Positions 41,633 to 46,612 of a stretch of DNA of 64,000 bases are shown here, one piece after another; the stretch's first letter is position 1, and every line of letters starts with the position of its first letter. Both the position numbers and the translations under genes were made by a program. Source of the stretch: Escherichia coli. GTDB taxonomy: Bacteria; Pseudomonadota; Gammaproteobacteria; Enterobacterales; Enterobacteriaceae. The notes beneath the pieces are model-generated. The model saw only the letters and a program-made list of their open reading frames with translations. It was not told the DNA's origin and ran no database searches. Location of the stretch: the NCBI RefSeq assembly GCF_003019035.1, contig NZ_CP027447.1; one strand, written 5' to 3'.

Positions 41633-42922
41633 TTATTGGCAAAAAAATGTTTCATCCTGCACCGCACGATTAACCGCTGCGGTCAGACGCTGCAACTGTT
41701 GCGGGAGAATAATATAGGGCGGCATCAGGTAAATCAGTTTGCCAAAAGGCCGGATCCAGACACCCTGTTCGACAAAGAATTTTTGCAGCGCTGCCATATT
41801 CACCGGACGAGTGGTTTCGACCACGCCGATTGCCCCCAGTACGCGCACATCGGCAACCATTTCGGCGTCACCGGCGGGGGCAAGTTGCTCGCGTAGCTGT
41901 ACTTCAATAGCCGCCACCTGATGCTGCCAGTCGCCAGATTCGAGAATCGCCAGGCTGGCGTTTGCTGCTGCGCAGGCCAGCGGATTGCCCATAAAAGTTG
42001 GCCCATGCATAAAGCAGCCGGCTTCGCCGTTACTGATGGTTTCTGCAACCTCGCGCGTGGTGAGTGTGGCGGAAAGGGTCATTGTGCCGCCGGTTAAGGC
42101 TTTACCGAGACACAAAATATCCGGCGCGATTTCTGCATGTTCACAGGCAAACAGTTTGCCGGTACGACCAAATCCGGTGGCGATCTCGTCGGCAATCAGC
42201 AAGATACCTTCGCGATCGCACATTTTGCGGATTCGTTTTAACCATTCCGGATGGTAGATGCGCATCCCGCCTGCGCCCTGGACAATCGGTTCAATGATCA
42301 CTGCGGCGATTTCATGACGATGCGCCGCCATCAGGCGGGCAAAGCCCACCATATCGCGTTCATCCCATTCACCATCCAGGCGGCTTTGCGGGGCGGGAGC
42401 AAACAAGTTTTCTGGCAGATAGCCTTTCCACAGGCTGTGCATTGAGTTGTCCGGATCGCACACCGACATCGCGCCAAAGGTATCGCCATGATAACCATTG
42501 CGGAAGGTCAGAAAACGCTGGCGCGCTTCGCCTTTGGCCTGCCAGTACTGCAACGCCATTTTCATCGCCACTTCTACCGCTACGGAGCCGGAGTCCGCGA
42601 GAAAAACGCACTCCAGCGGTTGCGGCGTCATTGCCACCAATTTGCGGCACAGCTCAATGGCGGGCGCATGGGTGATACCGCCAAACATCACATGCGACAT
42701 AGCATCAATTTGCGATTTCATCGCCGCATTAAGCTGCGGGTGATTGTAACCGTGGATCGCCGCCCACCAGGACGACATACCGTCAACAAGGCGTCTGCCG
42801 TCAGACAAAATTAGCTCGCAACCTTCGGCGCTCGCCACCGGATAAACCGGTAGCGGGGAGGTCATGGATGTGTATGGGTGCCAGATATGGCGTTGGTCAA
42901 AGGCAAGATCGTCCGTTGTCAT
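41633..42922 (-). CDS. bioA: Adenosylmethionine-8-amino-7-oxononanoate aminotransferase
   Basis: [23 protein letters not shown]... 429 aa; start trimmed from track. Confidence 0.97.
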
Positions 42923-42928
42923 AATCGA

Positions 42929-42964
42929 CTTGTAAACCAAATTGAAAAGATTTAGGTTTACGAG
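42929..42964. promoter_or_regulatory. bio operator (BirA binding site) with divergent bioA/bioBFCD promoters
   Basis: Imperfect palindrome cttgtaaaccaaattgaaaagatttaggtttacgag between bioA and bioB. Confidence 0.85.
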
Positions 42965-43008
42965 TCTACACCGAATTAACAACAAAAAACACGTTTTGGA
43001 GAAGCCCC

Positions 43009-44049
43009 ATGGCTCACCGCCCACGCTGGACATTGTCGCAAGTCACAGAATTATTTGAAAAACCGTTGCTGGATCTGCTGTTTGAAGCGCAGCAGGTGCA
43101 TCGTCAGCATTTCGATCCTCGTCAGGTGCAGGTCAGCACTTTGCTGTCGATTAAGACCGGAGCTTGTCCGGAAGATTGCAAATATTGCCCGCAAAGCTCG
43201 CGCTACAAAACCGGGCTGGAAGCCGAGCGGTTGATGGAAGTTGAACAGGTGCTGGAGTCGGCGCGCAAAGCGAAAGCGGCAGGATCGACGCGCTTCTGCA
43301 TGGGCGCGGCGTGGAAGAATCCCCACGAACGCGATATGCCGTACCTGGAACAAATGGTGCAGGGGGTAAAAGCGATGGGGCTGGAGGCGTGTATGACGCT
43401 GGGCACGTTGAGTGAATCTCAAGCGCAGCGCCTGGCGAATGCCGGGCTGGATTACTACAACCACAACCTCGACACCTCGCCGGAGTTTTACGGCAATATC
43501 ATCACCACGCGTACCTATCAGGAACGCCTCGATACGCTGGAAAAAGTGCGCGACGCCGGGATCAAAGTCTGTTCAGGCGGCATTGTGGGCTTAGGCGAAA
43601 CAGTAAAAGATCGCGCCGGATTATTGCTGCAACTGGCAAACCTGCCAACACCGCCGGAAAGCGTACCAATCAACATGCTGGTGAAGGTGAAAGGCACGCC
43701 GCTGGCGGATAACGATGATGTCGATGCCTTTGATTTTATTCGCACCATTGCAGTTGCGCGGATCATGATGCCGACCTCTTACGTGCGCCTTTCTGCCGGA
43801 CGCGAGCAGATGAACGAACAGACTCAGGCAATGTGCTTTATGGCTGGCGCAAACTCGATTTTCTACGGTTGCAAACTGCTGACCACGCCGAATCCGGAAG
43901 AAGATAAAGACCTGCAACTGTTCCGCAAACTGGGGCTAAATCCGCAGCAAACTGCCGTGCTGGCGGGCGATAACGAACAACAGCAGCGTCTGGAGCAGGC
44001 ACTGATGACCCCGGACACTGACGAATATTACAACGCGGCAGCACTATGA
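43009..44049 (+). CDS. bioB: Biotin synthase
   Basis: 346 aa, radical-SAM CxxxCxxC (CPEDCKYC). Confidence 0.97.
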
Positions 44050-45200
44050 GCTGGCAGGATAAAATCAACGCGGCGCTCGATGCGCGGCGTGCTGCCGATG
44101 CCCTGCGTCGCCGTTATCCGGTGGCGCAAGGGGCCGGACGCTGGCTGGTGGCGGACGATCGCCAGTATCTGAACTTTTCCAGTAACGATTATTTAGGTTT
44201 AAGCCATCATCCGCAAATTATCCGTGCCTGGAAGCAGAGTGCGGAGCAATTTGGCGTCGGTAGCGGCGGCTCCGGTCACGTCAGCGGTTATAGCGTGGCG
44301 CATCAGGCGCTGGAAGAAGAACTGGCCGAGTGGCTGGGCTATTCGCGGGCACTGCTGTTTATCTCTGGTTTTGCCGCTAATCAGGCCGTCATTGCCGCGA
44401 TGATGGCAAAAGAGGACCGCATTGTTGCTGACCGGCTTAGCCATGCCTCATTGCTGGAAGCTGCCAGTTTAAGCCCGTCGCAGCTTCGCCGTTTTGCTCA
44501 TAACGATGTCACTCATCTGGCGCGACTGCTTGCTTCCCCCTGTCCGGGGCAGCAACTGGTGGTGACAGAAGGCGTGTTCAGCATGGACGGCGATAGTGCG
44601 CCACTGGCGGAAATCCAGCAGGTAACGCAACAGCACGATGGCTGGTTGATGGTCGATGACGCCCACGGCACGGGCGTTATCGGGGAGCAGGGGCGTGGCA
44701 GCTGCTGGCTGCAAAAGGTAAAACCAGAATTGCTGGTGGTGACTTTTGGCAAAGGATTTGGCGTCAGCGGGGCAGCGGTGCTTTGCTCCAATACGGTGGC
44801 GGATTATCTGCTGCAATTCGCCCGCCATCTTATCTACAGCACCAGTATGCCGCCCGCTCAGGCGCAGGCATTACGTGCGTCGCTGGCGGTCATTCGCAGT
44901 GATGAGGGTGATGCACGGCGCGAAAAACTGGCGGCACTCATTACGCGTTTTCGTGCCGGAGTGCAGGATTTGCCGTTTACGCTTGCTGATTCATGGAGCG
45001 CCATCCAGCCATTGATCGTCGGTGATAACAGCCGTGCGTTACAACTGGCAGAAAAACTGCGCCAGCAAGGTTGCTGGGTCACGGCGATTCGCCCGCCAAC
45101 CGTACCCGCTGGTACTGCGCGACTGCGCTTAACGCTAACCGCAGCGCATGAAATGCAGGATATCGATAGTCTGCTGGAGGTGCTGCATGACAACGGTTAA
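44046..45200 (+). CDS. bioF: 8-amino-7-oxononanoate synthase
   Basis: 384 aa PLP enzyme matching BioF. Confidence 0.97.
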
Positions 45201-45942
45201 TAAACAAGCCATTGCAGCGGCATTTGGTCGGGCAGCCGCGCACTATGAGCAACATGCGGATCTACAGCGCCAGAGTGCTGACGTCTTACTGGCAATGCTC
45301 CCACAGCGTAAATACACCCACGTACTGGATGCGGGTTGTGGACCTGGCTGGATGAGCCGTCATTGGCGGGAACGTCACGCGCAGGTGACGGCGTTAGATC
45401 TCTCGCCGCCAATGCTTATTCAGGCACGCCAGAAGGATGCAGCAGACCATTATCTGGCGGGAGATATCGAATCCCTGCCGTTAGCGACTGCGACGTTCGA
45501 TCTTGCATGGAGCAATCTCGCGGTGCAGTGGTGCGGTAATTTATCCACGGCACTTCGCGAGCTGTATCGCGTGGTGCGCCCCGGAGGCGTGGTCGCGTTT
45601 ACCACGCTGGTGCAGGGATCGCTCCCTGAATTACATCAGGCGTGGCAGGCGGTGGACGAGCGCCCGCATGCTAATCGCTTTTTACCGCCAGATGAAATCG
45701 AACAGTCGCTGAACGGCCTGCATTATCAACATCATATTCAGCCCATCACGCTGTGGTTTGATGATGCGCTCAGTGCCATGCGTTCGCTGAAAGGCATCGG
45801 TGCCACGCATCTTCATGAAGGGCGCGACCCGCGGATATTAACGCGTTCGCAGTTGCAGCGATTGCAACTGGCCTGGCCACAAAAACAGGGGCGATATCCT
45901 CTGACGTATCATCTTTTTTTGGGAGTGATTGCTCGTGAGTAA
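45187..45942 (+). CDS. bioC: Malonyl-ACP O-methyltransferase
   Basis: [27 protein letters not shown]...; start trimmed to 251 aa; overlaps bioF end. Confidence 0.95.
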
Positions 45943-46612
45943 ACGTTATTTTGTCACCGGAACGGATACCGAAGTGGGGAAAACCGTCGCCAGTTGTGCA
46001 CTTTTACAAGCCGCAAAGGCAGCAGGCTACCGGACGGCAGGTTACAAACCGGTGGCCTCTGGCAGCGAAAAGACCCCGAAAGGCTTACGTAATAGTGACG
46101 CGCTGGCGTTACAGCGCAACAGTAGCCTGCAGCTGGATTACGCAACGGTAAATCCTTACACCTTCGCAGAACCCACCTCGCCGCACATCATCAGCGCACA
46201 AGAGGGCAGGCCGATAGAATCATTGGTAATGAGCGCCGGATTACGCGCGCTTGAACAACAGGCTGACTGGGTGTTAGTGGAAGGTGCTGGCGGCTGGTTT
46301 ACGCCGCTTTCTGACACTTTCACTTTTGCGGATTGGGTAACACAGGAACAACTGCCGGTGATACTGGTAGTTGGTGTGAAACTCGGCTGTATTAATCACG
46401 CGATGTTGACTGCACAGGCTGTGCAGCAAGCCGGACTCACTCTGGTGGGTTGGGTAGCGAACGATGTCACTCCACCGGGCAAGCGTCACGCTGAATATAT
46501 GACCACGCTCACCCGCATGATTCCCGCGCCGTTGCTGGGCGAAATTCCCTGGCTTGCAGAAAATCCAGAAAATGCGGCAACCGGAAAGTACATAAACCTT
46601 GCCTTGTTGTAG
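45935..46612 (+). CDS. bioD: Dethiobiotin synthetase
   Basis: [17 protein letters not shown]-loop; GTG start overlapping bioC stop; 225 aa. Confidence 0.95.

What the first reader, a model, noticed from the sequence alone, without database searches (positions are those of the whole stretch)
42929..42964. bio operator possibly carrying a substitution relative to the K-12 palindrome
The BirA operator reads ...aggtttacGag here, whereas I recall ...aggtttacAag in K-12, which would slightly break the palindrome symmetry. If real, it could subtly change BirA repression; it may equally be my imperfect recall.
Basis: inference. Interest (0 to 1): 0.15.

Follow-up and report, generated by a model that had tools for sequence, protein, structure and literature searches.

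The report
Common A/G variant in bio operator
The biotin-operon operator in this E. coli window does differ from the K-12 textbook sequence by one base, but the G is a common natural allele found in about a third of E. coli genomes, in E. albertii and in most related enterobacteria sampled, so it is ordinary.

Summary
Window base 42962 is G where K-12 MG1655 has A. This is the only difference in the 86-bp bioA-bioB intergenic region. It lowers the operator's inverted-repeat match from 14/15 to 13/15.

It is not a private mutation. Of about 5,410 complete E. coli genomes, 1,934 carry exactly this G operator and 3,244 carry the K-12 A operator. G carriers include CFT073, JJ1887, 042, IAI39 and CE10.

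E. albertii has both alleles at the same site. Among 80 distinct bioA/bioB flank haplotypes from metagenomes and genomes, 55 have G, 24 A and 1 T. Parsimony on a rough tree needs about 15 changes.

The surrounding 222 bp is otherwise identical between E. coli and E. albertii.

The window is 100% identical over the 22 kb compared to strain SCU-301. That strain's BirA DNA-binding domain (residues 1-69) is identical to K-12's.

My best reading is a tolerated polymorphism at an outer position of the bioB-proximal arm. It leaves the invariant GGTTTAC core intact. Any effect on repression or promoter strength is at most quantitative and was not tested. "Substitution relative to K-12" gets the direction wrong or leaves it undecidable, because K-12's A may be the derived state. 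Interest is low.

The parts
42927..42966 (.). bioO, the 40-bp imperfect inverted-repeat operator for BirA, 39/40 identical to K-12
   Evidence: It lies between divergent bioA and bioB as annotated in RefSeq. RefSeq annotates no operator feature here.
42928..42938 (.). Left (bioA-proximal) arm, ACTTGTAAACC
   Evidence: It is the same in both of the two major E. coli haplotypes.
42955..42965 (.). Right (bioB-proximal) arm, GGTTTACgAGT. K-12 has GGTTTACAAGT.
42962..42962 (.). The polymorphic base: G here, A in K-12. It is operator position 36 of 40, the 5th base from the bioB end, and its symmetric partner is T42931.
   Evidence: One search gives the alignment. Searches give the allele counts. 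Searches cover other species.
42930..42958 (+). Putative PbioB: -35 TTGTAA (42930-42935), 17-bp spacer, -10 TAGGTT (42953-42958). The variant lies 4 nt downstream of the -10.
   Evidence: Read directly from the sequence and from my recollection of Otsuka & Abelson 1978. PMC5640590 says only that bioO covers the -35 and -10 sites. The consensus scan did not call this promoter. This is inference.
42935..42963 (-). Putative PbioA by symmetry: -35 TCGTAA here (TTGTAA in K-12) at 42963-42958, 17-bp spacer, -10 TTGGTT at 42940-42935. An alternative placement is TAGACT(42968-42963)-17-CAATTT(42945-42940), which puts the variant at the first spacer base.
   Evidence: Inference from the sequence only. 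The transcription start was not verified, and the scan tool found neither placement.
41633..42922 (-). bioA CDS (429 aa)
   Evidence: (the listed ORF, 41633..43033, 466 aa, runs from an upstream ATG; the 429-aa start at 42922 is taken from the annotation) and the RefSeq annotation of the identical strain SCU-301.
43009..44049 (+). bioB CDS (346 aa)
44046..46612 (+). bioF (44046-45200), bioC (45187-45942) and bioD (45935-46612), the rest of the rightward operon
   Evidence: locus coordinate + 31999 = window coordinate.

Best explanation
Window 42927-42966 is the ordinary E. coli biotin operator. It carries the G allele of a common and old A/G polymorphism at operator position 36.

Mechanism, from established knowledge of the system: a dimer of BirA carrying biotinoyl-5'-AMP binds the two arms cooperatively. 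This blocks RNA polymerase at the overlapping divergent promoters for bioA and bioBFCD.

The G allele changes one outer base of the bioB-proximal arm. It leaves the GTAAACC/GGTTTAC cores and their spacing untouched. I infer that regulation is retained, with at most a small shift in BirA affinity or promoter strength.

Shown here: the identity of the locus, the allele frequencies, the phylogenetic spread, and the identical BirA DNA-binding domain. Inferred, not shown: that the functional effect is small.
For: - **Single difference.** One base differs from the characterised K-12 operator.
- **E. coli allele counts.** The exact G 53-mer is in 1,934 complete E. coli genomes and the exact A 53-mer in 3,244, of about 5,410. 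The 75-mer counts are 1,920 and 3,229 of 5,419.
- **Carriers of G.** They include CFT073, JJ1887, and 042, IAI39, CE10 and ST648.
- **Carriers of A.** They include K-12, BL21, O157:H7 and O104:H4.
- **E. albertii.** RM9973 (CP043271.1) has G and 2014C-4356 (CP024282.1) has A. The strain names come from PMC10673567.
- **Wider sample.** Among 80 unique bioA/bioB flank haplotypes, 55 have G, 24 A and 1 T. Fitch parsimony on a neighbour-joining tree needs at least 15 changes.
- **Most variable arm position.** Among the unique 54-mers, 42962 is G 21 / A 14 / T 1 once one chance non-bio match is dropped. Neighbouring 42963 is invariant.
- **Conserved surroundings.** The 222 bp around the site is otherwise identical in the window, K-12 and both E. 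albertii genomes.
- **Same repressor.** BirA of SCU-301, which is 100% identical to the window over the 22 kb compared, matches K-12 BirA at 318/321 residues. Residues 1-69 are identical.
Against: - No binding or expression measurement for the G allele was found in the accessible literature.
- As I recall from Streaker & Beckett 1998, which I could not read here, BirA contacts the terminal ~12 bp of each arm. The variant base lies inside that segment.
- If the symmetric placement of PbioA is correct, the variant is also position 2 of its -35 hexamer (TTGTAA to TCGTAA). A measurable effect is therefore not excluded.
- The site is the only variable base in a 222-bp block that is otherwise frozen across two species. 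That could also mean it is a selected two-state site rather than an unconstrained one.
Confidence: 0.85

Rival explanations
1. The G allele measurably weakens BirA binding to the bioB-proximal arm. Lineages carrying it (for example CFT073, 042, IAI39 and this strain) would then have a higher biotin set-point or higher basal bio expression than K-12-type strains.
For: The change removes one symmetric pair, 14/15 to 13/15. It lies in the outer part of an arm. The alleles appear to sort broadly by lineage. G is in strains I know as phylogroups B2, D and F. A is in strains I know as A, B1 and E (the phylogroup assignments are from my own knowledge).
Against: Both alleles recur in many separate lineages and within E. 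albertii. In several other genera the right arm's outer positions 36-39 diverge further (GGTTTACGATCC) while the core stays fixed. This suggests BirA tolerates changes there. The BirA DNA-binding domain is unchanged.
Confidence: 0.2
2. The main effect is on a promoter rather than on the repressor. G turns a PbioA -35 hexamer from TTGTAA into TCGTAA, or alters the PbioB region just downstream of the -10. That would shift the ratio of bioA to bioBFCD transcription.
For: Reading the minus strand gives T[T/C]GTAA-17 bp-TTGGTT, mirroring TTGTAA-17 bp-TAGGTT on the plus strand. A review states that bioO sits on the -35 and -10 sites of the two promoters (PMC5640590).
Against: I could not confirm the promoter placement. 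The primary paper is not held, and the consensus scan finds neither promoter. TTGGTT lacks the conserved A at position 2 of a -10 hexamer. An alternative PbioA (TAGACT-17-CAATTT) puts the variant in the spacer. Most enterobacterial lineages sampled carry G, which is hard to square with G crippling an essential promoter.
Confidence: 0.15
3. The G is a sequencing or assembly error, or a recent private mutation of this isolate.
For: None found. This was the default worry for a single-base difference recalled from memory.
Against: The identical 53-mer is in 1,934 independent complete genomes. It is also in dozens of metagenome contigs and in E. albertii.
Confidence: 0.01

Closest known systems
E. 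coli K-12 bioO, the 40-bp operator of the bioA/bioBFCD divergent operon bound by the BirA-biotinoyl-5'-AMP dimer
   Same: The location, length, arm cores (TTGTAAACC / GGTTTAC), 16-bp spacing between cores, spacer sequence and flanking leader are the same. 39 of 40 bases are identical. The cognate BirA has an identical N-terminal DNA-binding domain.
   Different: One base differs: position 36 is G instead of A. The right arm therefore reads GGTTTACGAGT, and the inverted repeat is 13/15 rather than 14/15 complementary.
bio operators of E. albertii and other Enterobacteriaceae-like lineages (metagenome and genome loci L005-L134)
   Same: They share the same core half-sites and spacing. Most of them (55 of 80 unique flank haplotypes) also have G at this position. 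The E. albertii RM9973 control region is base-for-base identical to the window over 222 bp.
   Different: More distant lineages vary in the central spacer (AAATTG/ATTTTG...), in arm positions 38-40 and in the bioB leader.
Operator-constitutive bioO point mutations (Barker, Kuhn & Campbell 1981; recalled, not read here)
   Same: Both are single base changes inside the 40-bp operator.
   Different: Those are laboratory mutations selected for loss of repression. This is a high-frequency natural allele. I could not check whether any of them hits position 36.

Membership tests
BirA operator bioO (enterobacterial type) | Lies in the short intergenic region between divergently transcribed bioA and bioBFCD | tested here: met
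   bioA is at 41633-42922 (-) and bioB at 43009-44049 (+). The RefSeq annotation of the identical strain agrees.
BirA operator bioO (enterobacterial type) | About 40-bp imperfect inverted repeat with TTGTAAACC / GGTTTAC(A)A cores 16 bp apart | tested here: met
   Arms at 42927-41 and 42952-66 are 13/15 complementary. The pattern is unique in the window and absent from 100 shuffles. The eighth base of the right 9-mer is G instead of A.
BirA operator bioO (enterobacterial type) | Sequence identity to the experimentally characterised K-12 operator | tested here: met
   39/40 identical. The whole 86-bp intergenic region differs at this one base.
BirA operator bioO (enterobacterial type) | The genome encodes a group II BirA with an N-terminal winged helix-turn-helix domain | tested here: met
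   birA of SCU-301 (L140:1338-2303) is 318/321 identical to K-12 BirA, and residues 1-69 are identical. This rests on the window being SCU-301 or a near-identical strain (100% over 22 kb). birA itself is not in the window.
BirA operator bioO (enterobacterial type) | Biotin-dependent binding by BirA and repression of both promoters | not testable with these tools
   This needs gel-shift or footprinting assays and reporter assays. No data for the G allele were found in the searchable literature.
Overlapping divergent sigma-70 promoters PbioA / PbioB | Recognisable -35 and -10 hexamers on both strands within the operator | tested here: inconclusive
   By eye, TTGTAA-17-TAGGTT is on the plus strand and TCGTAA-17-TTGGTT on the minus strand. 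The consensus scan, which needs 9 of 12 matches, reports neither promoter in either allele. Transcription starts were not available.

The most novel reading that the evidence does not exclude
Position 36 of bioO may be a selected two-state tuning site rather than a neutral one. It is the only variable base in a 222-bp control block that is otherwise identical between E. coli and E. albertii. Both species hold both alleles, and the A/G state flips repeatedly across enterobacteria. Under this reading each allele would set a different BirA repression threshold or bioA:bioBFCD expression ratio. The two would be kept by balancing or lineage-specific selection, or exchanged between species by short recombination tracts.
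Probability: 0.1. Interest if true: 0.4.

Novelty: already known. Interest (0 to 1): 0.12.

Why it matters
It matters little for biology at large. The feature is the textbook biotin operator, and the variant base sits in thousands of public genomes.

Three small points are useful:
- The K-12 operator used in all BirA biochemistry represents only about 60% of complete E. coli genomes. Its slightly better symmetry is not the family norm.
- Natural variation marks the outer right-arm positions (36, 38-40) as tolerant, while the GGTTTAC core, which the search pattern itself required, carries no such evidence. This is a free mutational map for anyone modelling BirA-DNA recognition, for which no complex structure had been reported as of a 2016 review (PMC5640590).
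- People building biotin biosensors or bio-promoter reporters from non-K-12 strains should know that two alleles exist.

Tried and rejected
- **Mis-specified genome scan.** The genome-contig scan used 16 N instead of 14 before TAGGTTTAC. Named outgroup genomes therefore had to be reached indirectly. The route was a metagenome scan, an exact-protein look-up and a paper that lists the accessions.
- **Base-level literature.** I looked for BirA-operator contacts, operator-constitutive mutations and the mapped bio promoters. Rodionov 2002, Cronan's EcoSal chapter, Beckett 2009, Solbiati & Cronan 2010, Sirithanakorn & Cronan 2021 and Thomason 2015 are not held. The papers that are held give only general statements.
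- **Wasted search.** A search for 'bioAp/bioBp' matched only 'bioapatite' papers.
- **Promoter scan.** The promoter and terminator scan finds neither bio promoter in either allele. It cannot rank the alleles.
- **Compensating BirA change: rejected.** The DNA-binding domain is identical.
- **Sequencing error or private mutation: rejected**.
- **Simple ancestral/derived polarity: abandoned as unprovable.** I had considered G ancestral with A derived in the K-12 clade. E. albertii is itself polymorphic. The flanks are identical for more than 100 bp on each side. Recurrent mutation, shared ancestral polymorphism and short-tract recombination therefore cannot be separated.
- **Unnamed lineages.** The non-Escherichia lineages could not be named. 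I describe them only by their bioB identity to the window (77-87%).

Full report
**What is at the coordinates.** The window reads CATAATCGACTTGTAAACCAAATTGAAAAGATTTAGGTTTACGAGTCTACACC... from 42920. CAT at 42920-42922 is the reverse complement of the bioA start codon. bioB starts at 43009. An inverted repeat has arms at 42927-42941 and 42952-42966. [quoted passage not shown] PMC4382993 and PMC5640590 describe the system in general terms. The core pattern TTGTAAACC-N14-TAGGTTTAC occurs once in the 64-kb window and in none of 100 shuffles.

**Checking the observation.** I fetched the K-12 MG1655 bioA-bioB region and aligned it with the window. Across 199 aligned bases around the operator there are two differences. 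One lies inside bioA. The other is window 42962, G here and A in K-12 (NC_000913.3 position 809297). The symmetric partner of 42962 is T42931, so G removes one complementary pair. The arms are 13/15 complementary in the window and 14/15 in K-12.

**How common the G allele is in E. coli.**
- I used 75-mers centred on the site. The exact window sequence is in 1,920 of 5,419 complete E. coli genomes and the exact K-12 sequence in 3,229.
- With 53-mers covering just the operator, the counts are 1,934 for G and 3,244 for A, of about 5,410.
- The remaining roughly 4% include a third haplotype, GGTTTACAATTC. It has A at 42962 plus G42964T. It occurs in O111:H8 strain 02-3334 and in strains 95_0274 and UTME-2.
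- G carriers listed by the searches include CFT073, JJ1887, 042, IAI39, CE10 and ST648.
- A carriers include K-12, BL21, O157:H7 and O104:H4.
- From my own knowledge of these strains, that is roughly phylogroups B2, D and F versus A, B1 and E. There are exceptions, such as the bovine strain UTAK-4, which has G.
- The window itself is 100% identical over the 22 kb compared to E. coli SCU-301, a human commensal isolate. The next-best matches are 98.7-99.0% identical and include SMS-3-5 at 98.7%.

**Beyond E. coli.**
- My first outgroup scan was mis-specified and wasted.
- A corrected scan of metagenome contigs returned 120 loci, about 105 of them real bioA-bioB control regions.
- E. coli-like contigs (bioB at least 95% identical) carry either allele.
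- A lineage with bioB about 92% identical carries G in contig L123. The same BioB protein is encoded in NCBI genomes.
- Two of those genomes are named in PMC10673567. CP043271.1 is E. albertii RM9973, which has G. CP024282.1 is E. albertii 2014C-4356, which has A. The sister species is therefore polymorphic at the very same base.
- In more distant lineages (bioB 77-87% identical, unnamed) G is the majority state.
- Over 80 unique bioA/bioB flank haplotypes the counts are 55 G, 24 A and 1 T. Fitch parsimony on a neighbour-joining tree of the flanks needs at least 15 changes.
- That number is rough. The tree is short, and recombination would inflate it. Even so, eight or more separate clades visibly contain both states.
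- The scan pattern does not include the variable base, so the A/G tally is not biased by it. The pattern does force the 18 core bases. The apparent invariance of those bases across genera is therefore an artefact.

**Local conservation.**
- Among the unique 54-mers, 42962 is the most variable arm position. It is G 21 / A 14 / T 1 after dropping one chance non-bio match. The adjacent 42963 is invariant.
- Positions 42964-42966 vary moderately. The left-arm flank GAC (42927-42929) is almost fixed.
- Some lineages read GGTTTACGATCC and so depart from symmetry at three outer positions.
- Window 42855-43076 is 222 bp. It covers the first ~68 nt of each gene plus the 86-bp intergenic region.
- Across this block the window, K-12 and both E. 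albertii genomes are identical except at 42962. Coding DNA just outside is only about 92-94% identical.
- At about 7% divergence one would expect roughly 15 differences in 222 bp. The block is therefore strongly constrained, and 42962 is its single tolerated or two-state site.

**Same repressor.** birA is not in the window. In SCU-301 it lies at L140:1338-2303. Its product is 318/321 identical to K-12 BirA. Residues 1-69, which include the winged helix-turn-helix domain, are identical. The differences are K70E, A82T and I108V. There is no compensating change in the DNA-binding domain.

**How it most likely works.**
- From established knowledge: BirA charged with biotinoyl-5'-AMP dimerises and binds the two operator arms cooperatively. 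This shuts off both promoters.
- Shown here: the locus is that operator with one outer-arm base changed, and the change is common, old and recurrent.
- Inferred: regulation is intact and any effect is small.

Two quantitative effects remain possible.
- **Weaker BirA contact at the bioB-proximal arm.** My recollection, which I could not verify, is that Streaker & Beckett 1998 place contacts in the terminal ~12 bp of each arm.
- **A promoter effect.** On the plus strand I read TTGTAA-17-TAGGTT as PbioB, which puts the variant 4 nt downstream of the -10. On the minus strand the mirror image is T[T/C]GTAA-17-TTGGTT, which would make the variant position 2 of a PbioA -35. However, TTGGTT lacks the conserved A at position 2 of a -10. 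An alternative, TAGACT-17-CAATTT, would put the variant in the spacer. The scan tool calls neither promoter in either allele. I could not obtain the primary mapping.

**Comparison with what is known, and novelty.** This is bioO itself, a member by every testable criterion. The G allele is present in thousands of public genomes. I found no paper discussing the polymorphism, but the searchable literature on bioO is thin. I rate it "already known". The one mildly interesting residue is that the sole variable base of an otherwise frozen two-species control block toggles A/G repeatedly. I give a 10% chance that this reflects selection on a tuning site rather than lack of constraint.

**Verdict.** The direction of change is undecidable, and any functional consequence is unproven and probably minor. 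Interest is low.

Noticed in passing
window 42855-43076: This 222-bp block covers the first ~68 nt of bioA, the 86-bp intergenic region and the first ~68 nt of bioB. It is identical in the window, K-12 and two E. albertii genomes except at 42962. Coding DNA just outside is about 92-94% identical. Even synonymous sites at both gene starts are frozen.
   Followed up: partly
window 42964 (loci L135, L136, L137): There is a third natural E. coli operator haplotype, GGTTTACAATTC (A at 42962 plus G42964T). It occurs in O111:H8 strain 02-3334 and strains 95_0274 and UTME-2. It accounts for part of the ~4% of genomes matching neither main allele.
   Followed up: partly
L008, L056, L086, L059, L021 (right operator arm): Several non-Escherichia lineages read GGTTTACGATCC in the right arm. 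This places a GATC (Dam methylation) site inside the operator and promoter region.
   Followed up: no
L073, L074; L010, L013, L028, L035, L090, L117: One lineage (L073/L074) has about 100 extra bases between the operator and bioB, and the longest bioB ORF is extended at its N-terminus. Another group (bioB ~85% identical) has a short leader without the GGAG Shine-Dalgarno seen in E. coli.
   Followed up: no
window 43006 (L055, L064, L104, L108): A C-to-T change 3 nt before the bioB ATG (GCCCTATG) occurs in some E. coli-like metagenome contigs that carry the G allele.
   Followed up: no
K-12 birA 5' end (L139:1083-1292): The first 210 nt of birA are unexpectedly diverse at the DNA level within E. 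coli. 1,136 genomes are only 90-95% identical to K-12. Yet the SCU-301 protein is identical to K-12 over residues 1-69.
   Followed up: partly
E. coli genome searches: Two copies of the bio control region lie on plasmids, and a few genomes have two copies. Seven of 5,426 genomes lack the region altogether.
   Followed up: no
window 50423-50567: RefSeq annotates a molybdenum-cofactor riboswitch upstream of moaA in the identical strain SCU-301. RefSeq gives bioO no feature in either SCU-301 or K-12.
   Followed up: no
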